A stretch of 64,000 nucleotides of DNA from Cetorhinus maximus (Eukaryota). Position numbers and translations under genes: made by a program. A model generated the notes under the pieces. It was given only the letters and a program-made list of their open reading frames with translations, did not search any database and had not been told where the DNA came from. Shown here in pieces: positions 1 to 57,098 of the stretch; within the stretch, counting starts at the first letter, position 1; the number at the start of each line of letters is the position of its first letter. The DNA lies in the NCBI RefSeq assembly GCF_964194155.1, contig NC_135890.1, forward strand, positions 85,064,001 through 85,128,000. The letters run 5' to 3'.

Positions 1-3000
1 ATCTGGAAGCCAAACTGCAGACACAGCGCAACATAACAGGAAAAATACCAGGACACTCATTCACTCACTCTAGAATCGCTTCATCCAATTCAGGGTTGTG
101 GGGAGTCAGAGCCTATTCTGACAGGCAATGGGCGCTAGAAGATGGTAATTTCTCTTAGAATAGGGTTGTATGTTTTGGTCATCGGTGAGGGACAGGAGGA
201 TGTGACTGTGAGGCAGGTAAAGGGACCGAGCAGACAGTAGTGGAAGAGCCTCAGACTTTGCAATTGTCAAACAGGTTTGAGGTGCTCACAACCTGTGGAA
301 AGCAGGTTGGCCATGATACAGTGAAGCTGTTCAAGCAGGGGGAGCAAGCAAGAATGTAAGGGTAGTAGAGGACAGTATGGTGAGGGACACTGTCACGGTT
401 TTCTGCAACAAAGAGCGAGAGTCCAGATGGCTGTGTTGCCTGCCTGGTGCCAGGGTTTAGGACATCTATTCAGGGCAGGTGAGGAACTTGCAATGGGAGG
501 GGAAGGATCCAATCATTGTGGTCCATGTAGGTACCAATGGCATAGGCAGGGCAAAAAAAGAGGTTCTGCATAGTCAGTATGAGAAGCTAGGTACCAAATT
601 AGGAAGCAGAACTTCAAAGGTAATCAATTCTGGATTATTACCTGAACCACGTGCAAATTGGCATAGAGCAAATAAGATTAGAGAGATGAATGCGTCATTC
701 AAAGATTGGTGTGGGAGAAGTGGGTTCCAGTTCATGGGGCACTGGCACTAGTACTGGGGAAAGTGGGTGCTGTACCATTGGGATAGTCTATACCTGAACC
801 GTGCTGAGACGAATGTTCTTTCGAATTGCATAACTAGGGAAGTAGAGTGGAATTTAAACTAAACAAGGGTGGGGGGAGGGCGGGGGGGTGGATAGTGAAG
901 GATCAAGTTTGGGTAGATGTAGCAAATCAAGGGGTAGATTCAAGGCAGGAGACCATAATAGTAAATGAGGTCATAGGATAGCAGGAATGGACAGAGAGAT
1001 AAAACCTAAGAATACATCTATAGTCAAGATTAGATGTTGCAAGGATAACAAAAAGACAAAACTAAAGGCTCTGTATCTGAATGCATGTAGCATTCATAAC
1101 AAAGTAAATGAATTGATAGCCAACATTGAAGTAAATAAAGATGATCTGATAGCGATTACAGAGATGTGGCTGCAGGATGATGAGGATTGGGTCCTGAATA
1201 TTATGGGGTATATGACATTCAAAAAGAATAGGGAGCTAGGTAAAGATGGAGGGGTAACACTGTGGATCAAGGATAGCATTAGTGCAATATTTAGAGATGA
1301 CCTGGGTTCAGGAGATCAGTATGTAGAATCGTTTGGGTTGAGATGAGGAATAGTAGGGGAAAGAAGTCACTACTGGGAGTCGTCTACAGGCCCCCAACAG
1401 TAATCACGATGTAGGACAAGTACACAAGAAGAAACATCGTGTGATAAAGGGACAACAGTAATCATGGGTGATTTTAATCAAAATATAAACTGGAAAAATC
1501 AGATTAGCAGTAGTAGCCTGGATAAAAAGCAGCTCGTTCTGGAACCAACCAGAGAGCAGGTTATATTAGACCTGGTATTTGTGTAATGTGAATGGATTAA
1601 TTAATAACCTCAGAGTGAAGGCGCCTCTAGGTAGTAGTGACCACAATATGATTTAATTTTCCATCCAGTTTGAAAGGGAGAAGAGTAGGTCTAAGACTAG
1701 TATTTTAAACTTAAATAAGGGCAACTATGTGGGCATGAAAGCTGAGCTAGCTGAAGTGAACTGGAATACTAGGCTAGGGGATAGATCAATAGAGAAGCAA
1801 TGGCAGACATTTAAGGGGATATTTCAGAATACTCAGAATAAATATGTTCCTACTATAAAGAAAAATTCTAAAGGGAGGACCCACAGTCCGTGGTTAACTA
1901 AAGAAGTTAAGGATGACATCAAACTTAAGAACAAAGCATATAACTGCGCAAAGATGAGTCAGATGATTGGTCAGAATATAAAAAATGGCAGAGAATGACT
2001 AAAAGGTTAATCAGGAGAAAGAAATTAGAGTTTGAGAAGAAGCTAGCTAGAAATGTAAAAACGGATAGCAAGAATTCCTACAGGTATTTAAAAAGGAAAA
2101 AAGTAATGAAGTAAGTTGGTCCTCTAGAAAGTGACAATGGGGAGTTAATAGTAGATAATAAGGAAATGGCAGATGAAATTAACAAATATTTTGCTTCTGT
2201 CTTCACTATAGAGGATACAAAAAACATTCCAGTAATAGCTATAAATCAAGAGATGGAAGGGAAAGGGGAATTTGGTGAAACTACAATAACTAGGGAAGTG
2301 GTACTGAGCAAACTGATGGAGATGCGGGCTGACAAGTCTCCAGGTTCTGATAGACTTCATCCTAGGGTCTTAAAAGGTGGTGGCTTATGAGATAGTAGAT
2401 GCGTTGGTATTAATTTTCCAAAATTCCCTAGATTCTGGAAAGGTTCCATCAGACTGGAAAGTAGCAAATATAACCCCTCTATTCAAGAAAGGAGGGAGGC
2501 AGAAAGCAGGAAATATAGACCAGTTAGCTTGACATCTGTCGTGGGGAAGGTGTTAGAATCGCTCATTAAGGAAATTTTGCCAGACACTTAGAGAAACTCA
2601 AGGTAATCAGGAAGAGTCAGCGTGGTTTTGTGAAAGGGAAATCATGTTCAATCAATTTATTGGAGCTCTTTGAAGGAGTAACGTTCGCTGTGGATAAAGG
2701 GGTGCCTGTAGACATGCTGTACTTGGATTTCCAGAAGGCATTTGATAAGGTGCCACATCAAAAGGTCATTGTGGAAAATAAAAGTTCATCGTGTAGGAGG
2801 TAACATATTAGCATGGATAGAAGATTGGCTGGCCGGCAGAAAACAGACAGTATGCGTAAATAGGTCTTTTTCTGATTGGCAGGATGTGACAAATGGAGTC
2901 CCGTGAGGGTCCGTGCTTTTACAATTTATATCAATGACTTAGATGAGGGGAGAGAAGGCATGGTAACTAAATTTGCAGATGACACAAAGATAGGTAGGAA

Positions 3001-7829: not shown

Positions 7830-9265
7830 TATTTTGCTTGTTGCTTGACCCAATCCCTCAACTCCAGTCTGCCTATTGTACACCTTCTCTAGACCTACTT
7901 TTCTTTTACGTGTCCCATTACAATCTCTTTTTGCTTTGTGCCATCATCCCTTTGGTAATTTCATATTTCTTGCCTTCCACTGTATCATCGACCTTCCCTT
8001 TTGTTCTTTCTTCCTCCCCCCACTTTCCCTGCCTCTGTACCTGTTTAAAAACTGTTACGTCTCTAACTTTTTCCAGTTCTGATGAAAAAACACCAACCTG
8101 AAATGCTTACGAGCTTCTAAAAATGGTGGTCCCACCCCCATATCTGGCAGATCCAATTTTTGGGGAAAGGGGTCTGGCGTGATTCACATAGGAAGGAAAC
8201 CTGAACTTAGCAGGGCTTTTGCTGATGCAAGGGCCTTAACCTGCAGTGAGGGAGTCATGAATTGATGGATTGACGTTAACACTCTTGAAGGGTAGGTAAG
8301 ATCTGTATAGCTGTCATGATCTGAAGTTTTTTTAAATGCTCCATTCTTTAAATTTAAGAAAAACAGGCTGCACTTGTTAAGTAAATGTTAAAAACCACCC
8401 TGTGCTAGTTTTCTTTCATTGACAGGCCTAAGTTAGAAAAAAAAAAGCACAAGGTCATGCAGTTTCAATAGAGGTCCTTGTCGACATTTCCCAATGACTA
8501 TTGTGAATGCTTGGCTGAGTTTCAAAAGCTATTATCTCACTAGGGGGTTCCAAGTTCACAGTTCGATTGACAGATTAAATAAGTTATTAAAGAATTAGCT
8601 GTCTTTGATGTGGGTCTGAATAGAAGTTTGTTTGTTTTTATAAGAGATTATCCACTTGAGTAGATTAAAAAATTTTGAATGGGTTTTATGAATGGGAGTT
8701 TTTTTTCACTATCAGGTGTTTGGAATGGCAGCTGAACTAGATTGTTTAGAAGTTTTTTGTCATCTCCATATGGCTCCTGAGGTCTGCCCGTGGTAGATAC
8801 TGGGTGAGTGGCTATGGAAATGGCATGAAGGGTATGGGGGGCATTTGGAGGTATGTTGGCATTGAGGGTTGGAGGGTCCACAGGGGGTAGGTGGCGGGTG
8901 AGAGAACTAGAGAGCCAACAACTTCTAAAACAACTGGGACAAAGTCCAAGAATTGAGGTGGACCTTCTAAACAACCTGCCTTGGCACTTGTCTGCCAATG
9001 TGGCTGCTTATGTGCTGCTTCTAGGGGTTGGCAAGCCCAACTTCCGTCCTGCACCTACCCACCCCCAGAACAAAAATCATGTATTTTTTTACCCAGGTGA
9101 GTCTGGTGAGTTGGGAAATTTTCCAACTCGAGCTACCTGCTTTGAAATTTCAACATTGGCTACCGCTTTGGTAGCCAAAATCCAGGCCACTAACTCTGTT
9201 TCTCTCTCCAAAAATGCTGTCTGACCTGTTGAGTATTTCTAGCTTTTTCTGGGTTTTTTTTAAAT
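7830..9265 (+). mobile_element. Penelope-like element 3'/pLTR fragment split by a MITE
   Basis: ccagttctgatgaa...ctgaaatg (to about 8105) resumes as taactctgtttctctctcc...gacctgttgagtatttctagc (9190-9265). Same repeat as at 12431, 33655, 36708 and 56735. Confidence 0.7.
8108..9188 (-). mobile_element. Non-autonomous DNA transposon (Harbinger-type MITE)
   Basis: Terminus aaaatccaggcc at 9188. Internal sequence is the reverse complement of 33736-36050 (shared gtgaaaaaaaactcccattcat.aaacccattcaaaa and cacatcaaagacagcta). Confidence 0.7.
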
Positions 9266-11790: not shown

Positions 11791-12430
11791 GGTGCAATTG
11801 TATTCAAGAGTAATTAGTCAGAAATTAACATGAGCACCATTTTGTTTATAGTTAACGAATACAAATTATTCATTCTGAAGGATCTTTGGTTTATATTGTT
11901 TCACAGGTTGCTGCACTATAGAATACATACTGCAGCATTCATACTGATTTATAGGTTACATAGTCATTTCAGACACATTGAAGTCCTATAAATCTATATA
12001 TACCAGCTCTTCACATTATGGCAGGGACAGTAACCGGCAGAAGCAGGGTCAATCCTCATCAGAGGATTCAAGATACACGAGGGGGAAGGGAGAGTTAGCA
12101 TTGAGCACTGGCATGAGGTTGTGCTTGGACCTTGTTGGGGAGAGGTCAAAAGGTTTTATCCCTTAAGGTTAGGCCGAGGAGTATCTTTGGTTTTGAGGGT
12201 GGGCAGGGAATATGTATGGATATCTCCAAGCCTTTCCTAGTTTTAGGTGTAGTTAATGCATCATTTGTTTTGCTCTGCGGATGACCCACAGTTATTTTTG
12301 TGAGGATCGCTAAATTGCCCCAGGTTTGAGAGGTGTACCTTCTTTCTACTTCAAATGAAACTTTTGTAAACTTACAAGCTGTGATTCCTTGTCCAGAAAA
12401 CAGTAGGCCAAGCAGGCAAGGCATTGGGTC

Positions 12431-12653
12431 CAAAATAAAAACAAAATACTGCAGATGCTGGAAATCTGAAATAAAAACAGAAAACACTGTAAGAACTCAG
12501 CAGGTCTGGCAGCATCTGTGGAGCCAGAAAGAGAGTTAACGTTTTGAGTCCGTATGACTCTGAAGAAGAGTCACATGGACATGAAACATTAATTCTCTCT
12601 CCACAGATGCTGCCAGACCTGCTGAGTTTTTCCAGCATTTTCTGTTTTTATTT
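12431..12653. mobile_element. Penelope-derived inverted pLTR insertion forming an approximately 200-nt hairpin
   Basis: Arms aaataaaaacagaaaa..ctcagcaggtctggcagcatctgtggag / ctccacagatgctgccagacctgctgag..ttttctgtttttattt. 13-bp TSD aagg(c/t)attgggtc at 12418-12430 and 12654-12666. Confidence 0.85.
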
Positions 12654-12759
12654 AAGGTATTGGGTCTCGTGTAATATTCTATGGTTTAGATAGTCTTCAG
12701 GTGGCTGCTCCATTCTACTCCTCCCCCATTGTCCAGCTCCATAGACTCCCCTCATGTGA

Positions 12760-15679: not shown

Positions 15680-18600
15680 AGTGGAGGCAATGTGTCAGGA
15701 CTGTAATATGTGGAACTGTGTGTACAGTGATACTCTCCTAGACTGTAACATCTGCAGTAACTGTCTCTGTGGCTTCAGTGACTTTGGCTCAGTCTTTGAG
15801 CTGGAATGTGTGTCAGAGACACTCCATCATATAAGGGAGGGGGAAGAATTTTTGAATAGTTTTCGCCAGAGGACACAGTCATAATTCAGAGGAAAACTCA
15901 GGTGTCGGAAGGGGAGTGTGTGATTATTAGTCAACAGGATAAGGGTAACCAAGGAATGACAGAGAAAAAGATCCTGCAGATACTGGTGTTGATCGACAGG
16001 TACAATGTACTTGCTACTCATGAGGATAAGGATGCAGGCTGAAGGGCTGACTGCCAGAACATTAACCATAGCACTGTGGAGCAGGAGGCAGTCTGGGGGA
16101 AAAGGTGGCAGGAAGGGGGGATGTGGGGATGGGGGAGAGCAGAATATAAAGATTGTAGTCAAAAGGACTCGATAATTAGGGGGATAGATAGCACCCTCCG
16201 TAGTCATGACTAAGAGTCCAGAAGGGTGGTGTTGTTTACCTAGTACAAAGGTAAAGGATATCCTGCAGCAAATGGAAAGGAATTAAAGGGACAAATGGCA
16301 CATGGAGGAAAAGGGAAGAAGTCCACTCAAGGGAAAATCAGAAGTTAGGAACCAAAATAACAATTGGAGGACCTTATGGGTTACTACCCAAGCCACATGA
16401 TAACGGGCATAGAGATTCACAGATCAGAAAGGTGAATGCTTGACTGAAAGATTGGTGTGGGAAGGAGGATTTCCAGTTCACAGAACGCTGGCACCAGTAC
16501 TGGGTAAGGAAGGAGCTGAACTGATGGGACTGGCTCCACCTGAACCAGGAGTGGGACCTGTGCCATAGTGGAAAGTTGGGCTGTTGATAGGACTAACTAG
16601 TAGGATAGGTTGAGAGTGGGGGAGGGATTTGTTTAAATTAATGCAAGTCTGAAGATAAAAGAAGTAGTAGATGAAAGTAATGGTCAGACCAAGGTAAGTA
16701 ACAAGGCTAACATAAATAGCAGTTAATAAACAGAAGTATAAAATAAATGCTAATAATTAAGTAAAAGGAACAACTACTTAAGACAAAATATACTGCCTGG
16801 ACAGTAAGGCACATAGCATCCAAAATAAAACAGGGGAACTGGAGGCAAAAAATCTCTAATGATACAGTAATGACAATGCCATTGAATGTCAAGGGCGATA
16901 ACACAGGTTATGGAGTTTTTTCTAATTTGTGGAGGATTCCTTCCTTACCCAGTATAAAATGACCAACAAGAGAAGGAACATTGCTGAATCTAGTAAGGTG
17001 AAATGAACCGGAAGAGATATAGAAGCAAGTGTAGGAGAACATCTAGGCAATAGTGATCACAATGTAATAATGTTTATCTTACTGAGAATGACATAAGTAA
17101 GACAAAGACCAAAATAATAAATTGAAAATAGCTGATCTTAAGGGGATAAGAATAAAACTAGGGAAAATAAACTATAAAAAATTTACTGACATAAAATAGC
17201 AGTGAGAAACATTTCAGTGATCAATAGGGTCCAGTAGAGATATATCCCACTAAGACTAGGAACAAACTATCTAGTAATGACACACCATGGATGAATAAAA
17301 AAAAAGGGTAAAACTGAAAATAAAGAAAAAGATATATATTAAGTACATGGAGAAAGGAGAGAATGACATATGGGAATATAAAAAGGTTTGGAAAGAAGAC
17401 AAAAGCACAAATTAGAAGGCAAAAATATACAAAATTAAATTATTTACGAACATAAAAATAAATAGTAAAGCATTCTATAGACTCATAAATCACAAAAGAA
17501 AACTCACAACAGGAATAGGGCCACCAAGAGATATATGTAAAACTCATAAATAATTACAGCATATTTACCAGGGAGACTAACATGAGAGACATGACACCAG
17601 AAGAAAAGATATATTAAAAAATGAAGATATTTAAGCTAGAATAGGATGAGGGGAGATAATTGGTTAACTAATCAAACTTAGAGAGGATAAAACTCCTGGG
17701 TGGATCCATGCATACTAAGATAAGTTAGGGAAGAGAAAGCTGAAGCACAATCACAGATATAAAATTATTCCGACAGGGAACAGTGCCAGAAAACTTGCAG
17801 GCAGCTAATATGATAATTATATTATAAAAGGGAGATAGAACAAATCCAAGGAACTGTAGGCCAATTGGCATAACATCAGTATATGGAAAAGATCATGGAA
17901 TGCTTAATCAGTGATTCAACAGAAAGTTTTAAAGAAATTGAAAATATAATTAAAAAAAGCATGGATTTCAAAAGGGTAGGTCATGATTGACCTTACTGAA
18001 TTTTTTGAAGAAATAACAGAAAGGATAGACAACAGCAATGGAGTAGACGCAAGATATTTGGATTTTCAAAAGGCCCTCAAGATGGTACTGCATATAGTAG
18101 ACCCATGACTCAGATCAGAATATGAGGGTCAGGAGACCAGTAGCAGAAAGGATAGCAAGCTGGTTACAAAACAGAGAGTAGGAGTTAAAGATAGTTACAC
18201 ATGATAAATGGTGGATAGTGATGTTCCACAAGATTGGTGCAGGGAAATAAATGTCTAAATAGAGTAGATGAATAGAGGGATATGGAGGTGGAAACAGGTA
18301 CACAGGTTAATAAGATCTTTAAAATGCAAAAAAAGCACTGGGGTTCAATTCTAAAGGGACAGAAATGAAAAGCAGAGAAATTACATTAAACTTGTACAGA
18401 TCCCTGGTGGTGTACTGTGAACAGTTCTGATCTCCGCATTATATAAACAACATAGTGGCAGTGAAGAAGGTGCAACAATGTTATACTAGAGTGATACCTG
18501 AACTGAGAGATTATATCTAACAGGAAAGACTGAGCAGGCGAGGGCTCCTTTTTCTAGAAAAGGACAACTCCTTTTCTAGAGAAAGGAGCCCTCGCCTGCT

Positions 18601-18925
18601 CAGCAGTGGCCTTATAGAGGTTTGATAGGGTAGACGGACACTTACAGGCAGACAAAACTAGGGGCCATAAGAAAAAGATAGCCACTAATAAATCAGGTAG
18701 GAAATTCTGGAGAAACTTCTTCACTCAGGGTGGTAAGAGAGGTTGCAGCAAATAGCATTGATGCATTAATGGGAAAGTTAGATAAGCATGAGGGACAAAG
18801 GAATAGAAGGATATGACGCTGGGGTTAGGTATTGAGGGGTGTCAGGAGGCTTATGTGGAACAGAAACACCAACATGGATCCATTGGGCCAAATGGCCTGT
18901 TTCTGTGTAACACTATGTAATATAT
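15680..18925 (+). mobile_element. Old, heavily decayed CR1 LINE with internal deletions
   Basis: ORF1 zinc finger CQDCNMW..CNICSNC (15675-15884); esterase end gattggtgtgggaagg..ggcaccagtactggg; APE SDH motif (agtgatcac); RT gattttcaaaaggcc; 3' UTR gggccaaatggcctgtttctgtg. Confidence 0.85.
18530..18603. repeat. Near-perfect inverted duplication (35-bp arms, 4-nt loop)
   Basis: ctgagcaggcgagggctcctttttctagaaaagga caac tccttttctagagaaaggagccctcgcctgctcag; one mismatch between the arms. Confidence 0.95.
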
Positions 18926-23429: not shown

Positions 23430-24860
23430 TATGGACACTGACAACATCCCGGCTGAAGCACTGAAGGCTTGTGTTCCAGAACAAGCTGCACTCCTAGCCA
23501 AGCTGCTCCAGTACAACTACTATACTATCATCTACCTGATAATGCAAAAAATGTCAGGTATGTACTGTCCACAAAAAGCAGGACAAATCCAATCCAGACA
23601 ATTTCTGCCCTATCAGTCTACTCTCCATTGTTGGAAAACAATAGAATGTGTCACTGACAATGTTATCAAGCAGCATTTATCCAGCAATAACCCGCTCACC
23701 AATGCTCAGTTTGGGTTCTGCCAAAATCACTTGGCTCCAGACCTCATTACAGCCAAACATGGACAAAAGAGCTGAATATTCAAGAGCTGAGGTGAGAGTG
23801 ACTACCCTTGATATCAAGGAAGCATTTGACCAAGCAGGGCATCAAAAAGCCCTAGCAAAATTGTAGTCAATGGGAATTGGGGGGAAAAAAAGTGTCCACA
23901 AAGCAAGATAGTTGTGGCTATAACAGCCCTATCCTCTCAGGCTCAGGACATCACTGCAGGAGTTCCTCAGGGTTGTCTCTTATGCCCAATCATCTTCAGT
24001 TGCTTTATCATTGACCTTCCTTCCATTGTAAGGTCAGAAGTGGGGATGATTGCAGAGTGTTCAGTAATATTCGCAATGCATTAGATACTGAAGAAGTCAA
24101 TGTTCACATTCAGGAAGACTTGGATAACATTTAGGCTTGGGCTGAAAAGAGACGAGTAACATTCATGTCACAAGTGCTAGTTAATGACCATCTCCAACAA
24201 GAGAGAACTAATCATCTCTCCTTGATATTCAACTGCGTTCCATTGTTGTATTCCCCCACCATCAATATACTGGGGGTAGCATTGACCAGAAACTTAACTG
24301 GACTAGCCATATAAATACTATGGCTACAAGAGCAGATCAGAAGCTGAGAATTCTGTGCTGAGTAACTCACCTCCTGACTCCCTAAAGTCTGTTGATCATC
24401 TACAGCAGCATGATGGCTTGCCTGAATGAATACAGCTCCAACAACACTGAAGCAGCTCAACACCATCCAGGACAAAGCAGCTTGTTTGATTGGTTTCCCA
24501 TCCATCATTGTGGTAGCAGCGTGTAGTATCTACAAGATGCACTGCAGCAACTTACCAAGCCTCCCTCGACAGCACCTTCCAAAGCCACAACCTCAACCAC
24601 ATGGAAGGACAAGGGCAGCAGACATTTGGGAATGTCACCACCTGCAAGTTTCCCTCCAAGCCACAAACCACCCAAGCTTGAAACTATATTGCCATTCCTT
24701 CACTGTTACTGGGTGAAAAACCTGGAAATCCCTTCCAAACTGCACCACATGGACTGCCGCGGTTCAAATAAGGTGACTCACCACCACTTTGAGATTTAGG
24801 GATGGTCAATAAATGCTGGCCTTGACAGCGATACTCACAGCCCATGAACAAATAATAAGT
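23430..24860 (+). mobile_element. 5'-truncated L2/Crack-like (CR1-group) LINE
   Basis: LTNAQFGFCQNH, TLDIKEAFD, APTTLKQLNTIQDKAACLIG; 3' tail ttagggatggtcaataaatgctggcc. Same family as 39775-42103. Confidence 0.85.
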
Positions 24861-33085: not shown

Positions 33086-33735
33086 TTTTATATGTCTGTA
33101 AGAAGTAAAAAAGTGTCAAACACATTTACATAACTCTATCTCCTGCCACCGCAATGAAACAGGAAGTCAGAGCCACTGACATCATTAGTGTGCGTCTAGA
33201 ACAGGAAGTGGAAACCCACTCTGCCCTAGTGCTACTGACATCATTGTTGTGCGCCTGGGTGAATGCTCACCACCCACTTGCTCATCTTGCTTGCTGTCCC
33301 ACTCATTACTTTGCTTCTGCCCCGCTCCCAACCAGTGAAAACTGAAATCGTTAATCATGGTGAAAAAAAAACACATTTTACTCATGCTGCACTTGTTTAA
33401 ATATCTTTATATTGCTCAATATTATGGATGGTCGTATTCTTTGATGCAAGCAGCTATCTGTGACTGGCAGTGATGTCACAAGCACTGCAACTGCATGTTC
33501 AGTGAATGCGCCCTGCAATTGTGGCGGCAGCAAACGCAGCCTTTATTTAAATACCCTTGAGTTCATGAGTCCCACTAGCTGTATCACCGGCAGCAAATCT
33601 CAGGCAGATTTCTCAAGCTTATCAATGATGTAGAAACAACAAAGAAAAATTAATTAAAAAATTAGAAATAAAAACAGAAAATGCTGGAAATACTGAATAA
33701 ATCAGACAACATCTGTGGAGAGAAACAAAGTTAAT

Positions 33736-36050
33736 GGGCTGGATTTCCGTGACCGAGGCAGGTAGGTTAAGGCAGGAAGTTTCCCGACTTGGCAGACTTG
33801 TCTCAGTTTAAAGGGTCCTGTTGGACTCAATTTCTGCTCCAGGGAGGCGGGGGTGAGATAAAGTCAGGCCCCCTGATCCCAGAAGCAGATCCTAGGGGGC
33901 AAGGGGGCTGGGCGAGTGCTGAGGTGGGCTGATTAGAAGTTCTCAGTTCTCTGTGTTGTTTTAGCAGCTGTTAGGCACTCAAGCTCTCACCCTTCACCCA
34001 CTTACCATGTCCCCTCGTGCCCCCATGTCACCTCCATGCCAACACATGCCACTCACCCAGCCACATGGCATCTCATACCTCCATGCCACTTCCATGCTAA
34101 CTCATGTTCCCACCCACTCATATGCACCCTCTTTCCCCATGCCACCTGCATAGCCACTCACCCAGGATCCATAGAACCATAGAAAAGTTACAGCATAGAA
34201 GGAGGCCATTCAGCTTATCTTGTCCATGCCAGCCCGATGACACCCAGGTGCCCTTTCTAATCCCACCTTCCTGCACCCGGCCCATTGCCCTGCAGCTTAC
34301 AGCACTCAAGGTGCAGATCCAGGTACTTTTTAAAAAGAGTTTAGAGTTTCTGCCTCTACCACCAACTTGGGCGGCGAATTCCAGGCACCCACTACCCTCT
34401 GCGTAAAAAAGTTCTTCCTCATGTCCCCCCTACACCTTCTGCCACTTATCTTGAATCTATGTCCCCTGGTTCTAGAATTCTCCACCAAGGGAAACAATTT
34501 TATCCTGTCCACTCTATCTATTCCCCTCATAATTTTGTACAGCTCAATCAAGTCACCTCTCAGCCTTCTTTGTTCTAAAGAAAATAACCCCACCCTATCC
34601 AATCTCTCCTGGTAGCTACACTTTTCTAACCCTGGCAACATTCTTGTAAACCTCCTCTGCACTCTCTCCAGAGCTATTACGTCCTTCCTGTAATGTGGTG
34701 ACCAGAACTGCACACAATACTCCAGTTGTGGCCTCACCAGTGTTTTATACAATTCCAACATTATATCCTTACTTTTATATTCTATACCTCTGCCAATGAA
34801 GGAGAGCATTCCATATGCCTTCTTTACAACCTTGTCTACTTGAACTGCTGCCTTCAGGGACCTGTGTACTTGTATGCCAAGATCTCTCATTTCATCTACC
34901 CCTCTTAGTATATTCCCATTTATTGTGTAATCCCTGTAACTGTTTGACTGCCCTAACTGTTTGACCGCCCTAAATGTATGACCTCACACTTCTCTATGTT
35001 AAAATCCATCTGCCACTTTACCGCCCACTCCACCAACCCATCTATATCACTTTGGAGATTATGGCGATCCTCTACACTATCCACTACTCGGCCAATCTTT
35101 GTGTCATCTGCAAATTTCCCAATCGTGCCCCCCATGTTCACGTCCAAATCGTTAATGTATAACACAAACAACAAGAGTCCCAACACCGAGCCCTGTGGAA
35201 CACCACTTGAAACAACTTTCCATTTGCAAGGGCATCCATCGACCATTTCCCGTTGTTTCCTGTTACAAAGCCAACCTTTTATCCAATTTGCCACATTACC
35301 CTGAATCCCATGGGCTTTTACTTTCCTGACCAATCTGCCATGTGGGACCTTGTCAAATGCCTTGCTAAAATCCATGTACACAACATCCACTGCACTACCT
35401 TCATCAATGCTTCTTGTCACTTACTCAAAGAATTCAATCAAATTTGTGAGGCAAGACCTTCCTTCAACAAATCCATGCTGACCATCCCTGACTAGTCCAT
35501 GCCTTTCCACATGACAGTTAATCCTATCTCTCAGGATTGATTCTAATAATTTGCTCACCACCGATGTAAGACTAACTGGCCTATAATTGTTTGGCATTTC
35601 CTTTGATCCCCTTTTAAACAATGGAACTACATTTGCACCATGGGCAGGCCTCCGGAGCCATGCAGAGATGAAAAAAAAAATTCTAAAATTCTAATACAGC
35701 TCTCACTCATACACATTTGACAGTGAAAAAAAACTCCCATTCATGAAACCCATTCAAAACTTTTAAATATCAAGTGGGTAACCTGTTATAAAACAAACAC
35801 ACTTCTATTAAGTAGCCACATCAAAGACAGCTATTTGTTTAATAACATTGTCTCTTTATACTGTCAAACAAATGGTGAACTCAGAACACCCTGCTGAGAT
35901 AAGTGCTTTTGTAGAATTGTAACTCAACCATGCATTCAGAACGACAAAACAACAGCCCTCAGGAAACGTAACAAAGACTCCTATTGAAACTGTGGAACAG
36001 TTAGTTATGTTATATCATGTGCCCCTGAGGGTATCATAGAAGGATGTTCC
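33736..36050 (+). mobile_element. Harbinger-type MITE (same family as 8108-9188), split by CR1
   Basis: Terminus gggctggatttcc after aat; ccatgcc-rich minisatellite 34000-34165; resumes at 35638. Confidence 0.7.
34170..35637 (-). mobile_element. Young 5'-truncated CR1 (HER1-like) LINE
   Basis: Long ORF2 pieces: NYRPVSLTS, YMDFSKAFDKVPH, GVPQGSVLG, KFADDTK, RDLG..LYKTLVRPQLEYCVQFWSP. (ttctatg)n tail reversed at 34170-34185. Confidence 0.95.
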
Positions 36051-36705
36051 CTTCAGAATGCTGAAACAAGAAGGGAGGGGTAGATGTGTTCGGTGGTAGC
36101 ATCATGCTGAAGGTGGCTGAAATTGCGGAGGATGATCCATTGAATATGGAGGCTGAACCGTATCATGTTTCTAGGAGGGAGGGGATGGGGTGAGAGCAGA
36201 AGCGCGTGAAATGGAATATACACAGTTGAGGGCCCTATCAACCATAATTGGGGGCGGTGGGGGGGCGGGTGAGGGAAGATGAAGGGGGTGGAAATCCTCA
36301 GTAGTGGAAAAGGAAGCCATATTGGAAGTGCTAGTGTGGAAGGTTGCATCATCTTAACAAATACGATAGACACGGAGAAACTGGGAGAATGGAATAAAGT
36401 GCTTACAGGAAGCAGGGTGTGAGGAACTATAGTTAAGCTAGCTGCAGGAGACAGTGGACTTATAATGAATATTGATTGATAGCCTATTTCCAGAAATGAA
36501 AACAGAAAATTCAAGGAGAGAAGACCACATGATGGCAAGGGAAAGGTGGAAATTGGGAGCAAAGTCGATTAAATTTTCCAATTAAGGGCAAGAGCAGTAA
36601 ACGGCAGTCTTCAATTTACCCGAAAAAGAAAAAGTTAGTACCTTTTTACCTATGAATGTGAGGAAATGTACATAAGAATGCTGTAAGCAAATGTATATAA
36701 GAATG

Positions 36706-36740
36706 CTGATGAAGAGTCATATGGACTCGAAACGTTAACT
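36706..36740 (+). ncRNA. Minimal type I hammerhead ribozyme motif (Penelope pLTR type)
   Basis: CTGATGA-a-GAGTC atatg GACTC-GAAA-CG-TT-aact: catalytic core boxes, 5-bp stem II and palindromic stem III (ACGT). The 5' strand of stem I is truncated in this copy. Confidence 0.7.
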
Positions 36741-36836
36741 CTGTCTTCCTCTCCACAGGTGCTGTCAGACCTGCTGAGTTTTTCCAGCTATTTTTGTTTT
36801 TGTTTAAGGTTTCCAGCATCCGCAGTATTTTGCTTT
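36708..36836 (+). mobile_element. Short Penelope-derived insertion with 14-bp TSD
   Basis: TSD tatataagaatgct at 36694-36707 and 36837-36850. Body is the pLTR repeat. Confidence 0.88.
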
Positions 36837-39071
36837 TATATAAGAATGCTATGTTTTGCTAAGTAGAAAATTGAACATTAGGTAGGAAGGGATTTGTGTG
36901 TATAACTCTGGTAACATTTACAAGCACTTTTCTAAAATCAAAAATGTAAGCTGGAACATTTGTTTGACCACTCTCACATTTAGTACCTGGTGGAATGGAA
37001 GTACCCTACCTCTAATAGGAGAATCAAAATGATTATGCACCTTCAATCCAATCCCTCATACACATGAACCCACAGCACAATTTCCATAACATGCCCTCAA
37101 GCAAGCATGCATTGCTCAAGCAGAACAGACATTGTTATGGCAGAGTAGATGGAGGCAAACTTTGTATAGGTTCAGTTTAAGTGACACAGAGGTGTTAGAT
37201 TCTAATAAATGGCCAAAGGAGGAGTGTGTCCTATACCCCGCTAATGGCACTTTTCACCTTGAATAAAAAGTGTTATTGCACTTACTTATATGTAAAGCCT
37301 ATCAGCAACCTATGAAAGATTCTGTGCGCTACAGGTAGTTTTCATTAAATAAAAACTCTTTGTAGTCATGTAAGATTAAACGGCTGTGATATGTTTTGGA
37401 ATAAGCCATCACAGCTGTCAAAGCCAGGTGTCAAAGAAGACACAAAAGAAAAGACAATTTATCTAATACGACCTTCCTTGAAGCACATCTCTTGACAGTT
37501 GTGACAGCTTATTTCTAAATCAAAAACATACAGTTTAATCTCATACTACTGCTTATAATGAAAGTCATACCTATCCTGACAAGATCTTTTTATCGTGTCC
37601 TACTGTTTATTAAATTTACCAGTAAGTGCAATTAAAATTCTGACAGGTGGCAAACATTAGCAAAATAGAGAATTACTTCCCACCACTTATGAAATTTGAT
37701 CAAGTCACTTGCCATGTAGTCAACGTTTCTGTTAACTACAGAGTAGAATCTCTCAGTGCAGGGAGAGACCATTCAGCTCATCGCTCACAAAAGGTGAATG
37801 GACAGTGAACATCCAAAACTCTGTTCTATGTATACACATTGCATTCACTCCTAGAGATTATAAGCGTGTTGTAGGATGTGTTCACTATAGTGAACCAGAT
37901 TACAATCATTTAAAACTGTCTGAAATATATACATTTTTGAAAACCTTCCACTTAAATTTAAAGAGAGAAATTTTTTTAAAGACAGTTGTTTGGCATTAGA
38001 CATTTAGAGGGAATAGTCAACACTTCCAGTGATGAATATAGTGAAAAAAGGAATCAATAAAATGCATTTATGCACCTAATGAATTTGTATAATACTGGGT
38101 AAATCATAGTTGCTGGAAGTATATTTCTGGAATTGAAAGTTAAAGAGTTACATGAACTGGTTGGAAAGGAGGTATTGAAAATAATCACGATGTTAAGGAA
38201 TAATTAAAAGCCTTTAAACAGAAAATATCAATAAAAAAGGGAGGTAATTAGTGTAACTTACTGAATTTTTAGACAACCAATAGGCAACATACTGAGGGAA
38301 AGTTTTACAATGAAAATTAGATACCTGCGCTCAGCTGGGAGTAATTTCATTATAAACCTGCAATAATGTCACATTTATTAATCTCATTGTGTGGATGCCA
38401 ACATGTATCAAGTGGCAGCCTGACAGTAGTAACAGAAAGTGACTAAGATAATTACCTTACTCAGAACATAAAATTGAGACCAGAGATTTATCACGAACAA
38501 TTATAGATACCAGGCACCAATCCCAAGAGTGAATTGCCATCTTAGAGATTCAGATAGCAGTTACTTAACTAACTGCTCAAAGTTTATTTTTGTAGTTTTT
38601 GACAATATCTGTTTCATTTAGATTGCTGTCTTCTAATCACTGCCAGATATCCATTATGATATACATATGGGATGTACAACAGCAAACTACTGAATACATA
38701 ATTTATCCCATTAGTAAGCTGAGGTGGTCTACGGATGCGATAAATTCAGCATTCAACTGCCTGTCATTTAGTGTTGTTAATGCAATAAATAAGGTATGAT
38801 ATATAATAACAGTAAAATTTAATTACAGGGTTTAATTATATTTTAGCCTGGGATATTCAAGTATGGAATATGCTTTAGAGGTATCTCAATTGAGGAAAAA
38901 AGTGACACTATCAAAACTACAATGCAGAATAGACATGAAAAGTATAGTTACAATAAATGTTTTGCCAGCACTCAGTGCATGTTAAAGGAACAAGGCAATT
39001 TTGAGCAAGCCAATATATATATTATGTTGCACTGAAAAATGTATGGGGAAAATCCATAATGCACATAGTAG

Positions 39072-39180
39072 AAAAGATAAAAACAAAAAATGCTAGAAAC
39101 AATCAGGTCTGCTGCATCTGTGGAGAGAGAAACACAGTCAATGTTTAAATGCTGAGCATTTTAGCACTTTCTGTTTTATC
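39072..39180. mobile_element. Degraded Penelope-derived inverted pLTR fragment
   Basis: ataaaaacaaaaaatgctagaaac..gcatctgtggagagagaaacacagtcaatgttt..tagcactttctgttttat. Confidence 0.6.
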
Positions 39181-39774: not shown

Positions 39775-42103
39775 ATGGTGGAATTTTAATTCACTAAATA
39801 TCTGGAATTAAAAGTTAAATGATGACCATGAAACCATTGTCGGTTGTCGTAAATACCCATCTGGTTCACTAATGTCCTTTAGGGAAGGAAATCTGCCATT
39901 CTCACCTTGTGGGGCTTACATGTGACTCCAGATCCTCAGTAATGTGCCTTCTGAAATGGCCTAGAAAGCCACTCAGTTGTATCAAACTGCTAAAAAGTCA
40001 ATAAAAAGGAATGAAACCAGATGGACCACTGGCATCGACCTAGACACTGGAAACGACAACGGCAAACCCAGTCCTGTCGACTGTGCAAAGTCCTCCTTAC
40101 GAACATATAACCTCATGGCCCAGCATATTCCCCACCCTACCATTACCACCAAGCCAGGGGATCAACCCTGTATCAATAAAGAGGGCATGCAGGACAAGCA
40201 CCAGGCATACCTAAAAATGAGGTGTCAACCCAGTGAAGCTGCAACAGATGGACAGAGCTAAGCGATTCCACAACCAAAGGATCAAATCTAAGCTCTGCAG
40301 TCCTGCCACATCCATTCATGAATGGTATGGACAATTAAACTGCTCACTGGAGGAGGAGGCTTCACAAATATCCCCATCCACAATGATGGAGGGGCCCAGC
40401 ACATCAGTGCAAAAGAGAAGGCTGAAGCATTTGCAACAAACTTTAGCCAGAAGTGCCGAGTGGATGACCCATCTCGGCCTCCTCCAGAGGTCCCTAACGT
40501 CACAGATGCCAGTCGTCAGACAATTCGATTCACTCCACGTGATATCAAGAAATGGCTGAAGGCACTGGGTAATGCAAAGGCTATGGGTCCTGATAATATT
40601 CCAGAACTAGTGCTCCAGAGCTTGCCACACCACTGGCCAAGCTGGTCCAGTACAGCTACAACACATGCATCCACCCAGCAATGTGAAAAATTGCCCAGGT
40701 ATGTCTTGTATACAAAGAGCAGGGCAAATACCAACTTGGCTAATTACTGCTCCATCAGTCTACTCTCCATCATCAGTAAAGTGATGGAAGGGGTCATCAA
40801 CAGTGCTATCAAGCTGCACTTGCTTGGCAATCACCTGCTCACTGACGCTCAGTTTGGGGTCCGCCACGGCCACTCAGCTTCTGACCTCATTACAGCCTAG
40901 GTTCAAACATGGACACAAGAGCTGAACTCCAGAGATGAGGTGAGAGTGACTGCCCTTGACATCAAGGCAGCATCTGACCTAGTGGGCATCAAGGAACCCT
41001 AGCAAAACTGGAGACAATGTGAATCAGGGGGAAAACTCTCCGCTGGTTGGAGTCATACCTATCACAAAGGAAGATGGTTGTGGTTGTTGGAGGTCAATCA
41101 TCTCAGTTCAGGACATCATTGCAGGAGTTCTTCAGGGTAGTGTCCTAGGCGCAACCATCTTCAGCTGCTTCATCAATGACCTGCCTTCCATCATATGGTC
41201 AGAAGTGGGGATGTTCGCTGATGATTGCACAATGTTCAGCACTTTTCATGACTCCTCAGATACTGAAGCAGTCCATGTCCAAATGCAGAAAAACCTGGAC
41301 AATATCCAGGCTTGAACTGACAAGTGGCGAGTAACATTCGTGCCACACAAGTGCCAGGCAATGACCATCTCCAACAAGAGAGAATCCAACCATCACGCCT
41401 TGACATTCAATGACATTACCATCGCTGAATCCCCCACTATCAACATCCTGGGGATTACCATTGACCAGAAACTGAACTGGAGTAGCCACATAAATACTGT
41501 GGCTGCAAAAACAGTCAGAGGCTAGGAATCCTGTGGCGAGTAACTCACCTCCTGACTCCCCAAAGCCTGTCCACCATCTACAAGACATAAGTCAGGAGTG
41601 TGATGGAATACTCTCTGATTGCCTGGATGAGTGCAGCTCCAACAACAATCAAGAAGCTTGAAACCATCCAGGACAAAGCAGCCCACTTGATTGACACCCC
41701 TTCCACAAACATTCACTTCCTCCACCACCAACGCACAGTACCATATACAAGATGCACTGTAGAAACTCACCAAGCCTCCTTAGGCAGCATCTTCCAAACT
41801 CACGACCACTACCATCTAGAAGGACAAGGGTAGCAGATACATGGGAAAACCACTGCCTGGAAGTCCCCCTCCAAGCCACTCACCATCCTGACTTGGAAAT
41901 ATATAACCGTTTCTTCACTGTCGCTGGGGTCAAAATCCTGGAACTCCCTCCCTAACAGCACTGTAGATGTACCTACACCACAGGGACTACAGCGGTTCAA
42001 GAAGGCAGCTCACCACAACCTTCACAAAGGTGATTAGGGATGGGTAATAAATGCTGGTCTAGCCAATGATGCCCACAGCCCATAAAAATGAATGAAAAAA
42101 AAA
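39775..42103 (+). mobile_element. L2/Crack-like (CR1-group) LINE with SINE-like 5' body, endonuclease region deleted
   Basis: RT motifs NYCSISLLSIISKVME, AGVLQGSVLG, MFADDC; tail ttagggatgggtaataaatgctgg..atgaatgaaaaaaaaa. 39775-39960 matches the body of the SINE at 52648. Confidence 0.9.
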
Positions 42104-50034: not shown

Positions 50035-52647
50035 GTTAAGGTGAAAGTAACTCTTAAGTATATATAATATATTTTCCCATTCAATAAATCCCCTTCTTAA
50101 AAAAATACATATATAGAAATGTCAACACAAAAAGAATGTTCCTTTTTTGTCTTCTCAAAAGGAAAAGACGTCCCTCTTTGAAGATCTCCAATAACTGTTC
50201 GGAGTTCGCTCCTCTTTTCATGAAGCAGTCGGACAATTGGTAGCTGCTATCAATCCATTTGATCTTGACAATCTCCTTATTCTCTAACATCTGTTTTAAG
50301 CTTGCAATGTCAATTCGCAATCTCTTTTTGTTAACACACTTTGTAGAATGAACATTTTTCCAAAGTGACGTATTATCAAAAAGATATTCTAAAGATACCT
50401 TCCCTGAATACCTTTTACCAGTTAAAATTTCTGCCAGCATCTTTGATATAAAGAATGCCATATCTACCGCCTCAACAAGAGTGGAGTCTCCGCCACCGGA
50501 GTACTTTTTACAACTCTTCCTATTTTTTTCACTTCCCATGCCAAAGGGCAACATTTACGTTTTTCCCACCCATGAGAAATATTATAAACCTTCCCACACT
50601 CGAAAATCCATCACGCAGATTTGCATAAGACACATCACTAAACACAATCAGTTTCATTTTTCTAAGATCACCCAGAGATGGGAATTTCAAAACACACTGC
50701 TCCATTTTTAATTTTGTCAATATTTTGTTTACTCAAATGATTTCTTCAACCTTGGGATCATTCATTTTAGTGGTCAATTCCAAGACATCAAAACTGACTT
50801 CTGGCCTTGTTTGTTTGCCCAATTAGACTTCTGAGTTCCCTTTTTTCTGTTTCAGAAGCTGCTGTATCTTTCTGGGAGGCCCTATCATGACTAATTGTAA
50901 TGGGATTGACATTCTCCAAGTAGGATTGCTGATGTAAAATGACATGTGATCCGCTCTGCCTGATTTCCAATCCCATGTATTTAAATGCACCAGAAACCTG
51001 ACTTCCAATTTTGAACTCCGTTCTGAGCCCATGAATGATAACCATTTCAAATTCACTACTACCATCCCACAAAATATTGTCTACAAGCACCACAAAGATG
51101 CCTGCATGTTTCCTTCCATGGTGGCGATTAAACATTGCCCGGTCTGCTTCCAACTGAAGACAGCCCAACTGAGACAAAACTGACTTCACTGAGAAATACC
51201 AAACTCTAGGGGCATCATTTAAACTGTATGCGCATTTATTTAGCTTCCAGAGTGTTCATTCTGCGTTTGGTGCCTCTTTCGGTGGGTGGAGAAAAACTTC
51301 TCTTTGAGGTTGGTGTCCCTGCAAAAAAGGCAACTTTAATATCAATTGACTTGCACTCCCAAACACTTGTAGCCAAGATCATCTTCAGAATAACTTTTCC
51401 TGCTGTAAGTGAATCCACTCTTATATCCTGGTCACTTCATTTTTCTTCAAAACCTTGGTGTCACTAACCTGGCTTTAGCTTTATAAGTCCCATCAGGAAG
51501 CACTTTTTCCATGCATATCCATCCATGAGATAGAGCTGGTTGTCCCCTATCTGGCACCTCTGTGTACACCCCAAATTCTTTCCAACTATGTAGATCTTGC
51601 TGTTTGGCATCCTTAATTAATTTATCGTCTAATTTGTTTGAAGCTACTAAGACTTCTCGATCACATGGACTTCTGTTCCTTGTAGCATTACTTGTCTGTG
51701 CCATATTCCTTGAACTTATTAAGCTACATCCTCTATCCCGCCCCGAACTGTTACTGCTTGGTCTCCCACCCTCTTACTTATAGATGTTATTTCAATCATT
51801 CGTGATCTCTTCCTAGAGTCATGTTCACTCCCAGACCCACTGTCCGAACTGACACTACGTTTCTGTGCCTTCCATTTTTGTACTTCGTGTTCCCAATCCA
51901 TAGGCCTAACCCTCCTGCCCTTTCTCTCGTACATTTAAGCAGATTTTATATTTTCCCGTGGCCTTCCCTGCTCTACCTACAATCGTTACATCCCCCCATT
52001 GGCTAGCCCCTTCTGATGAGTATGTACCTTTAGTACCAGTTTTTGGCAGTTGTCCTCTGGGGCAAATTGCCTCAGCCTGTTCATCCAAATTACTGTATCC
52101 ATCTTCAGAGACCCGGTCAACCTCAGCAACCTGGTCTTCACAATCATGCAACATATGGGTATGAGAAGTACATGGTTCCTCACCCTTCCTACAGCCCTTT
52201 ACAGACCCGCAAATTTGTAATCCGTGCCAAGTAACCTCGATGAGTGTACCCGAATAGTCTGGTTTCCATGCTGTAAAATGACTGTTTTACCATCTTTACC
52301 TATAACCTTGCCTGGGCCTTTTCACTTGTTAAGTCCTTCTCTTTTATAATATACCATGTCTCCCTGATTAAAAATAGTTTCCGATGGTCATACATTGTGT
52401 GTCTTAGAGCTTGCTGAATTCTTTCTGAAACTTCGGCTTTAAGGAACGCTCTTCTACCCGTATGTTCAAAATGTTTAAATGTTCAGAAAAGGTAGACCTA
52501 ATTGTAGTTCCCTCCCAAGCTGGGGGGTGGTCACTCAGAACTGAAGGAACTTGGGTTTCTACCAAAAACCAACTGATATGGACTATAGCCCCCTAACATC
52601 TGCAGTGAGTTCTTAGCATGGACAGCCCAAAACTCATTGTTAGCATT

Positions 52648-56040: not shown

Positions 56041-56734
56041 TCCCCAACAGCAGTCACTTGTAATGTACAAATTCTCTAGCACAGGAGGTACCAGAGCAGC
56101 AAAAGACCAGGACCACGATATCTGCAGTATCTTAACAGACCACAAAGTGTTGACATAACATCCTTTGACAAATCTTTAGCTTTGCTTTAGCAGCAGAACA
56201 CCACACTAACCTGGATATAGCAAGAACATTTCTCCCCATGGTATTATGAACTCTAGGCAAAGGCAGTTAATGATCTGTCAATTAAATCCTTGAAAAACAA
56301 ACTAAACAAATATTTGTTCATGACAGTGATTGAAGATTTTAAGGAAAAGTTAAAATAATCACAATGATTCCTGTGTTGCAGGAGACATGGAAGAATTACC
56401 TTTGGAATACAGCAACCCAAAGGGTAAATCTGTATTAATATGTAGTTTTGTATGACTACATTTGAGGGATTAGGGAGATATTTTACAGTGTTACCTTCTT
56501 GAAGATTCACTGTTAAATGGTTTCCTCTTTTAGAAAACTAAATTGATTGCACAAATTGTCCATGATGAAGCAAATTGTATATGATCTGTGATGGGTTAAA
56601 ATGACCTTGCTCATTACAATAGTCACTACATTCCCAAAGTAATTAGTTGAAGATTTTTGAGATCTTTGAACATAAAGTATTCTATAAATGTAAGTATTAG
56701 TGCTTTATTTATATCGATCTTTCTCCTAAATATA

Positions 56735-56920
56735 AAAGCAAAAAACTGCAGATGCTGGAAATCGCAAACAAAAACAAAAATACCTGGAAAAACTCAGGTC
56801 TGGCAGCATCAGCGGAGAGGAACACAGTTAACATTTCGAGTCCGTATGACTCTTCAACAGAACTAAGTAAAAATAGAAAAGAGGTGAAAAATAAGCTGGT
56901 TTAAGGGTGGGTGGGACAGG
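56735..56920 (-). mobile_element. Short Penelope-derived insertion with 13-bp TSD and hammerhead-like motif (56826-56864)
   Basis: TSD tctcctaaatata (56722-56734, 56921-56933). Minus strand agtt-CTGTTGA-a-gagtc atacg gactc-GAAA-tgtt-aact. Confidence 0.88.
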
Positions 56921-57098
56921 TCTCCTAAATATATTTGATTGGTTAACCTTTGGATTGCTCAACCCTTGAAATACGTTAAGGCATTCTAAGGGACATTGGT
57001 GACACACAAGCTTCATGAGTCTGTGATAAAGAATGGGTTTATTAAAGGCATTGGGTAATGACTAGTAAATGAGAGATACAATGGAAGCACAAACTCAC

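What the first reader, a model, noticed from the sequence alone, without database searches (positions are those of the whole stretch)
36694..36850. Family of short Penelope-derived insertions carrying minimal hammerhead ribozymes
Seen: at least six copies (8070, 12431, 33655, 36708, 39072, 56735), three with clean 13-14 bp TSDs. Consensus: agtt-CTGANGA-a-gagtc-loop-gactc-GAAA-CG-TT-aact. Known: Penelope-like elements carry minimal type I hammerheads with palindromic helix III that act as dimers. Inference: a high-copy, ribozyme-bearing, retrozyme-like mini-element. The copy at 36706 keeps an intact core with a predicted GUU cleavage site.
Basis: partly seen in the sequence, partly recalled or inferred. 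Interest (0 to 1): 0.7.

Follow-up and report, generated by a model that had tools for sequence, protein, structure and literature searches.

The report
Penelope stumps stop at ribozyme front
The short repeats are likely dead stumps of a very abundant, known kind of jumping gene that carries a tiny hammerhead RNA motif at its end; the flagged copy lacks one arm of the motif, and about a quarter of sampled sister copies break off at the motif's front edge rather than at its predicted cut site, which likely marks where the element's RNA begins.

Summary
The repeats and three target-site duplications are real. They are not a separate retrozyme: they are 3' ends (hammerhead plus 100- or 134-nt tail) of an autonomous 3.3-kb Penelope-like element (RT, CX4CX2C linker, GIY-YIG; Neptune/Nematis type) with tens of thousands of copies in this 4-Gb genome. 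The 36706 copy keeps core, helix II, palindrome and GUU but has lost the 5' strand of helix I; no copy in the window is a complete canonical hammerhead. In 148 copies taken in genome order, 41 begin within 10 nt at the ribozyme's front edge (about 35 times background) and 2 at the cut site. Short and long copies interleave on a tree, so stumps are recurrent by-products. A TATA-like box lies 29 nt upstream, so run-off at the RNA start is the likeliest cause (inferred). Against this: copies that include the ORF start mostly extend further upstream. Only 4,619 of 33,092 complete motifs combine the canonical A6 with a fully paired helix I; most carry U6 or C6. Rare internally deleted tandem units do look retrozyme-like. 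This scan noted both the pile-up and the A6 change before, on other DNA of this and other genomes.

The parts
36694..36707 (+). left target-site duplication (14 bp); its last two bases overlap the first two of the element
   Evidence: exact match to 36837-36850
36706..36740 (+). truncated minimal hammerhead: core 36706-36712, helix II 36714-36728, GAAA 36729-36732, palindrome AACGTT 36731-36736, predicted cut 36736/36737, helix I 3' strand 36737-36740; helix I 5' strand absent
36741..36839 (+). 3' tail of the element, ending at the +134 end class (likely RT start site)
   Evidence: analogy with PMC11167929
36837..36850 (+). right target-site duplication
12418..12666 (.). inverted two-armed insertion in a 13-bp TSD: minus arm 12436-12561 (+8..+131), plus arm 12559-12656 (0..+101)
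56722..56933 (-). copy spanning -58..+131 in a 13-bp TSD; U6 core subfamily, palindrome broken
33660..33734 (-). old tail-only fragment, no hammerhead core, no convincing TSD
39077..39146 (-). old tail-only fragment, no core, no TSD found
7900..8105 (+). 3' UTR and decayed hammerhead of an older related subfamily (74% to a neighbour in L244), tail missing

Best explanation
The 36706 insert is a 134-nt, TSD-flanked 3' end of an autonomous Penelope-like retrotransposon, lacks one strand of its hammerhead's helix I, and is likely a dead by-product made when the element's reverse transcriptase ran off the front of the element's own uncut RNA. Shown: the parent element (HHR, tail, 926-codon RT-linker-GIY-YIG frame, 3' UTR, HHR, tail; unit 3.27-3.30 kb), two 3' end classes (+100, +134), a sharp pile-up of 5' ends at the first bases of helix I, and a TATA-like box 28-31 nt upstream of it. 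Inferred: the GIY-YIG nuclease cuts the target; RT starts inside the RNA at +100 or +134; a TATA/Inr-like promoter in the pLTR starts one RNA class at the A of AGUU; about a third of cDNAs that reach this point end there and are joined to the target by microhomology (CT here), or head-to-head to the second-strand cDNA (inverted pairs). Longer copies would come from the 3' copy of the same start sites, from read-through RNA or from a template jump. Because the stumps keep sequence upstream of the cut site, their templates were not cut at this hammerhead.
For: Full-length parents L061, L062, L064 with HHR at both ends; YIDD, C-x4-C-x2-C, YIGET motifs, weak Pfam RVT_1 and GIY-YIG hits on L062. 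Census of 148 copies (C3=+1, A of AGTT=-3): 41 start in -5..+4 (4.1/nt) vs 0.11-0.12/nt in -299..-51; 41 of 124 at risk vs 8 of 83 and 2 of 75 in the next two 10-nt bins upstream; 17 of the 41 are plain, non-inverted copies; 20 have the long tail and 21 the short, so the stop is set by position, not length; present in AT, AA and TT core subfamilies. No shared upstream exon in 24 plain copies. TATA[AT]3 at -28..-31 in 51 of 60 long copies; TATA plus Inr in pLTRs has precedent (PMC3846280). 43 of 54 inverted arm rows pair one +100 with one +134 end and none pairs like with like, as expected from two internal RT starts and cleavage of both strands (PMC11167929), where unprocessed RNA was also the main template.
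Against: No 5' end was seen in RNA: only contigs were served. Among 29 rows that continue into the ORF start, only 2 begin in -5..+4 and 15 extend past -10, so not all templates start there. Exact TSDs of 8 bp or more abut only 5 of 24 plain copies near the peak. The same site reads as a 3' splice acceptor (pyrimidine tract plus AG), and in D. virilis an intron ends at helix I (PMC4209133). TATA-like words are cheap in this AT-rich UTR. I could not separate a cap-derived G from the templated G. L061 had no Pfam hit at 1e-3 and the PDB search gave no relative. The census covers two tail types on one contig and leaves out the C6 and old subfamilies.
Confidence: 0.6

Rival explanations
1. Same dead stumps, but the pile-up is a sequence- or protein-caused RT stop at a 3' splice acceptor (AG before the hammerhead, U2AF/PTB bound on the pyrimidine tract), or a fold-back/self-priming junction, not the RNA start.
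For: Pyrimidine tract plus AG directly precedes the core; intron end at helix I in D. virilis (PMC4209133); self-priming proposed for inverted junctions (PMC3846280); 24 of 41 peak copies are inverted, and arm ends are also correlated outside the peak; ORF-containing copies mostly pass the site.
Against: No spliced exon-1 copies and no GT..AG joint among the 15 listed of 52 RNA-contig joints; 17 plain copies show the peak; the strongest palindromes (AACGTT, helix II) are not where ends pile up (2 at +28..+35, 5 at +19); TATA spacing fits a start site.
Confidence: 0.25
2. One reading: a self-propagating non-autonomous mini-element or retrozyme of about 135 nt whose ribozyme processes its RNA.
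For: A fixed start and fixed ends give a SINE-like unit; internally deleted tandem units with a hammerhead in each unit exist in this family (19 of 30 rows); animal retrozymes derive from pLTRs (bioRxiv 2026.07.22.740005).
Against: Short copies are scattered over all subfamilies and some are identical to long ones; they lack the upstream TATA-like box and often helix I; window copies are not tandem; cleavage-made units would start at +32; 0 of 148 tail-anchored copies run on past the tail as the deleted units do.
Confidence: 0.07
3. The hammerhead cuts and circularises the element RNA; long copies come from circles and only the stumps from uncut linear RNA.
For: Model of PMC4209133; 4,619 complete canonical motifs; both census ends in +28..+35 fall exactly on +32, as does L313; junctions repeated within one locus (L300, L302, L305, L307, L308, L309).
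Against: No enrichment of the +28..+37 bin (3 of 143 at risk); 77 of the first 100 complete motifs have U6 or C6, and A6C is slow in vitro (PMC3088659); ribozyme mutants did not affect insertion in vitro (PMC11167929).
Confidence: 0.2

Closest known systems
EN+ Penelope-like elements, Neptune/Nematis type (PMC8557442 passages; PMC3846280 passages)
   Same: Single ORF with RT then C-terminal GIY-YIG, CX2-5CxxC linker, pLTRs, inverted 5'-truncated arms, one-sided 30-40 bp tail, TSDs, TATA/Inr-like motifs in the pLTR.
   Different: Very high copy number; a third of cDNA ends stop at one site, which I did not find described. Neptune vs Nematis not resolved: no RT tree was built.
Minimal hammerheads (min-HHR) of metazoan PLEs (Cervera and de la Pena 2014, PMC4209133)
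   Same: Helix I of 4 bp, extra base after A9, G10.1-C11.1, palindromic 15.2-16.2, no loop III, mostly solo copies from truncated PLEs, opposite-strand pairs.
   Different: Helix II is 5 bp (7-8 in S. mansoni); the commonest subfamilies have U6 or C6 instead of A6; the flagged copy lacks the helix I 5' strand.
PAc Poseidon element of Anolis (Frangieh 2024, PMC11167929)
   Same: Two RT start sites about 30-35 nt apart, about 100-135 nt after the hammerhead; both strands used; uncut RNA as template.
   Different: In PAc the ORF starts in stem II; here the ATG in the core closes after 9 codons and the long frame opens after the tail. Different clade.
Non-LTR retrozymes (PMC7229834 passages; bioRxiv 2026.07.22.740005)
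   Same: Type I hammerhead, pLTR origin, non-coding.
   Different: Retrozymes are tandem repeats of 150-450 bp expressed as circles; the window copies are solo or inverted stumps. Only the rare deleted units (230-540 nt, e.g. L305, L308) resemble them.

Membership tests
EN+ Penelope-like element (parent family) | Single ORF with RT and C-terminal GIY-YIG endonuclease | tested here: met
   925-926-codon frames in L061, L062; Pfam RVT_1 6.9e-6 and GIY-YIG 3.7e-4 on L062, both below curated cut-offs, none on L061
EN+ Penelope-like element (parent family) | Direct pLTRs from partial tandem, with hammerhead | tested here: met
   L061, L062, L063, L064
EN+ Penelope-like element (parent family) | Optional 30-40 bp tail, inverted truncated arms, TSDs | tested here: met
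   3' ends at about +100 and +134; 43 of 54 arm rows one of each; TSDs
EN+ Penelope-like element (parent family) | RT groups with PLE/TERT in a tree | not tested
   No reference set on hand; PDB sequence search gave no relative
Neptune/Nematis clades | CX2-5CxxC linker between RT and EN | tested here: met
   CNHRRCNTC in L061; does not separate the two clades
min-HHR (copy at 36706) | CUGANGA, helix II, GAAA, palindromic 15.2-16.2, NUH | tested here: met
min-HHR (copy at 36706) | Helix I | tested here: not met
   5' strand replaced by flank AATG
min-HHR (family) | Complete motif with canonical core | tested here: met
   4,619 exact matches of 33,092 with relaxed positions; 9 of 148 census copies
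min-HHR (family) | Stem covariation | tested here: inconclusive
   Within the sampled subfamilies helix II changes are one-sided (GAGTC/GACTC 54, GGGTC/GACTC 24); helix I has a C-A mismatch in the AGCT subfamily; no formal count was run
min-HHR (family) | Self-cleavage as dimer | not testable with these tools
   Cofold minimum-energy structures were not the active dimer for two A6 sequences and showed only the AACGUU duplex for U6; this says little
Non-LTR retrozyme (window copies) | Two or more consecutive direct units, each with a complete HHR | tested here: not met
   Solo or inverted copies only
Non-LTR retrozyme (window copies) | Expression as monomeric linear and circular RNA | not testable with these tools
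   Only contigs of runs guessed to be RNA
Non-autonomous SINE-like family | Short copies descend from their own master | tested here: not met
   25 label changes vs shuffled mean 27; at least 8 forced by starred branches; 93 columns only

The most novel reading that the evidence does not exclude
Penelope-like elements copy themselves like a hidden retrovirus: RT starts 100-134 nt from the capped 5' end, makes a strong-stop-like cDNA that ends at the front of the hammerhead, and either integrates it (the stumps, a third of events) or jumps to the repeated 3' end, which rebuilds the pseudo-LTR. The hammerhead region then serves as RNA start and jump pad rather than as scissors, which would explain why the youngest lineages could lose A6.
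Probability: 0.2. Interest if true: 0.7.

Novelty: new member of a known kind. Interest (0 to 1): 0.35.

Why it matters
The insert itself is ordinary debris. The family statistics matter more: how PLEs regenerate pseudo-LTRs and what their hammerhead does are stated as open (PMC2377424, PMC8557442). A sharp end at the ribozyme front, few ends at the cut site, and dominant subfamilies without A6 give three concrete, cheap tests (5' end mapping, in vitro TPRT, A6/U6/C6 cleavage).

Tried and rejected
Rfam scan: no hammerhead hit; not evidence against, the minimal motif lacks helix III. DNA searches with two subfamily tails returned nothing because common words are skipped. The first 30 loci were chosen by likeness to a query that starts at the core, so they were not used for the 5'-end statistics; nor was the profile census, where old subfamilies stop aligning at the core; the 30 loci were fetched but not analysed. 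RNA contigs of X1, X3, X5, X9 cover the element but cannot show ends or strand; loose ends near the core reflect subfamily differences. Spliced-leader origin of the short copies: rejected, no shared upstream sequence. Fixed cDNA length: rejected, both tail classes peak. An alternative cut after the GUU of AGUU: rejected on pairing grounds and because the AGCU subfamily also peaks. Nested insertion at -3: rejected where one TSD flanks the whole unit. Cap-G test by eye on 17 plain copies: uninformative. PDB search: nothing. Lunse et al. 2017 was not held. No host gene exon was identified among 26 long frames of the window, so gene context is unknown.

Full report
Numbering: C3 of the hammerhead core (window 36706) is +1; the preceding AGTT is -3..0; the predicted cut lies between +31 and +32.

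1. Observation. The motif is at 36706-36740 as written inside an exact 14-bp TSD; two more TSDs of 13 bp are real. Seven sites of the family lie in the window. Taken one by one: 36706 has core, 5-bp helix II, palindrome and GUU, but flank DNA replaces the helix I 5' strand; 12431 is an inverted pair with arms 0..+101 and +8..+131; 56735 spans -58..+131 with CUGUUGA and a broken palindrome; 33655, 39072 and 9191 are tail-only; 8070 is an older subfamily without tail. None of the 7 is a complete canonical hammerhead. Rfam gave no hit.

2. What it is. The window lies in a 3.99-Gb animal genome; that it is a shark is recalled resemblance and earlier notes, not tested. Of the 30 best matches many run on upstream, up to more than 1.5 kb, into RT (YIDD) and GIY-YIG coding sequence. 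A protein search gave 46,140 first-look candidates and frames up to 926 codons. Of 7 long-frame loci fetched, L061, L062, L063 and L064 show HHR-tail-ORF-3'UTR-HHR in direct order with a period of 3.27-3.31 kb; the other three have inverted 5' parts. The linker CNHRRCNTC places the element with Neptune/Nematis by the criterion in PMC8557442. Pfam support is weak and the PDB search was blank. Two exact 33-mers of the tail occur 11,090 and 12,290 times, controls 0. A profile found 65 hits (56 with score 20 or more) in 67 arbitrary 10-kb stretches, which extrapolates roughly to 3-4 x 10^5 ends.

3. Where copies begin. I took the exact-anchor matches in genome order on contig C1 without skipping (60 loci plus 80 stretches), 158 rows, 148 after removing 10 duplicates, and aligned each to 12 long copies. 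Starts: 39 reach -300 or beyond; 16 in -299..-151; 12 in -150..-51; 11 in -50..-11; 5 in -10..-6; 41 in -5..+4; 8 in +5..+14; 8 in +15..+27; 2 in +28..+35; 6 later. Poisson p is 1.6e-47 against the upstream rate and 1.6e-20 against the +15..+27 rate; for plain copies alone 1.4e-17. The peak holds for both tail lengths (20 long, 21 short) and for three core types (AA 9 peak/8 long, AT 6/11, TT 14/47). A tree of 101 of these copies (33 peak, 68 long; copies without a readable core or at the edge left out) needs 25 label changes against 27 for shuffles; it has only 93 columns, but starred branches force at least 8. So the stumps are made again and again from the autonomous lineages. Inverted insertions pair a +100 with a +134 end in 43 of 54 arm rows (8 events appear twice; 3 rows had no partner call) and never like with like.

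Against or limiting: exact TSDs of 8 bp or more were found for only 5 of 24 plain copies near the peak, others have short TSDs or extra bases. Among copies anchored past the tail, 2 of 29 start at the peak and 15 extend beyond -10, so a single linear RNA starting at -3 cannot be the only template. Both starts in +28..+35 fall exactly on +32, a weak hint of occasional cleavage. The C6 subfamily and old lineages were not in the census.

4. Mechanism. Shown: structure, end classes, pile-up, a TATA-like word at -28..-31 before the A in 51 of 60 long copies, Inr-like TTAGTT/TCAGTT at the peak. From papers: PLE protein cuts both strands, starts RT at two internal sites that define the tail, uses mainly unprocessed RNA, and does not need the ribozyme in vitro (PMC11167929); pLTRs hold promoters and TATA/Inr-like motifs (PMC2377424, PMC3846280). 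Inferred: one RNA class starts at helix I, and RT from the 5'-proximal start sites runs off after 100-135 nt (0.6). The main rival is an RT stop at what also reads as a splice acceptor (0.25); in D. virilis the start site lies 46 nt plus a 75-nt intron upstream and the intron ends at helix I (PMC2377424, PMC4209133). No spliced copies were seen. RNA evidence could not decide: four contig sets guessed to be RNA cover the element but show no ends.

5. The ribozyme. A relaxed complete motif occurs 33,092 times, the form with A6 and fully paired helix I 4,619 times. In the first 100 relaxed matches 62 have U6 and 15 C6 (hand count). A6C is slow in a phage hammerhead (PMC3088659). Helix II variation is mostly a G-U wobble, so covariation is not established here. 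PLE minimal hammerheads cleave weakly even as dimers (PMC4209133). The 36706 copy has no partner within 20 kb and no helix I, so it is unlikely to cleave.

6. Retrozyme question. Retrozymes are tandem units with a hammerhead in each (PMC7229834; bioRxiv 2026.07.22.740005, which reports them in one chondrichthyan). The window copies fail this. Deleted tandem units do occur: 19 of 30 rows anchored past the tail (795 exact matches) join the ORF start to the 3' UTR or core, six with the junction repeated, but 0 of 148 tail-anchored copies run past the tail, so they are a small minority. That these units extend past +199 is partly built into the anchor.

7. Novelty. Solo, truncated min-HHR copies of PLEs have been known since 2014. 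I found no paper describing a pile-up of copy starts at helix I or U6-dominated families (searches); the library lacks most subscription papers, Repbase and Dfam, and Lunse et al. 2017, which treats core variants, could not be read. My reading was written down before the look-ups, which show that this scan noted the same pile-up and A6 loss on other DNA of this and other genomes; one note reports excess starts at the cut site in another genome, which I do not see here.

Papers seen: PMC4209133 parts 1-2 of 4 (abstract, results, discussion, start of methods); PMC11167929 parts 1-2 of 4 (main text, start of methods); bioRxiv 2026.07.22.740005 part 1 of 5, passages and Discussion; passages only of PMC8557442, PMC6765202, PMC2377424, PMC3088659, PMC3846280, PMC7229834; Lunse 2017 nothing (title in a reference list and a review's passage). 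No supplements were read; alignments of min-HHRs in PMC4209133 and the species tables of the preprint may already hold this family. Hammerhead numbering, Inr/TATA and splice consensus, U2AF/PTB binding and the strong-stop analogy are recalled knowledge.

Verdict: new member of a known kind; the flagged insert is debris; the family's end statistics are a useful, testable lead. Interest 0.35.

Noticed in passing
L287-L316 (e.g. L300, L305, L307, L308, L309): 19 of 30 rows anchored just past the tail join the ORF start (+199 to +1087) directly to the 3' UTR or hammerhead; in six rows the same junction recurs in direct tandem (units about 230-540 nt). These fit the retrozyme definition better than the window copies. 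The anchor occurs 795 times; L306 and L307 share one junction at a microhomology.
   Followed up: partly
one search list; window 56826-56864; L061-L067: Core position 6-7 in the first 100 complete motifs, counted by hand: TT 62, AA 15, CT 10, AT 8, CC 5. Of the seven loci with the longest frames, five have U6, one C6, one A6.
   Followed up: partly
L166/L195, L197, L313: Three copies start exactly at the predicted cut site (+32); too few to show enrichment.
   Followed up: partly
inverted pairs: The 5' ends of the two arms are often close even away from the peak (-29/-31, -36/-35, -185/-216, -272/-286, 48/55), as if both cDNAs came from one RNA or one RT dimer.
   Followed up: no
L197 and L199: Two copies 4 kb apart on opposite strands share the same 3' flank; with L198 they may be one complex or duplicated insertion.
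   Followed up: no
window 36673-36686: A near copy of the TSD (one mismatch, TACATAAGAATGCT) lies 21 nt upstream of the left TSD, part of a repeated tip of a flanking LINE-like fragment.
   Followed up: no
window 34956-35420 (-), 50791-51255 (-), 969-1343 (+): Pfam RVT_1, RVT_2 (copia-type) and endonuclease fragments of other retroelements; 23641-24848 and 40784-42086 are two copies of one LINE-like 3' end.
   Followed up: no
window 18530-18603: Near-perfect 35-bp inverted repeat with a 4-nt loop; weak Rfam miRNA hit far below threshold.
   Followed up: no
window 33735 onward; L042, L078, L091: Another repeat beginning with a GGGC(A/T)G motif is inserted into or right beside old copies several times, which can fake 5' or 3' ends.
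   Followed up: no
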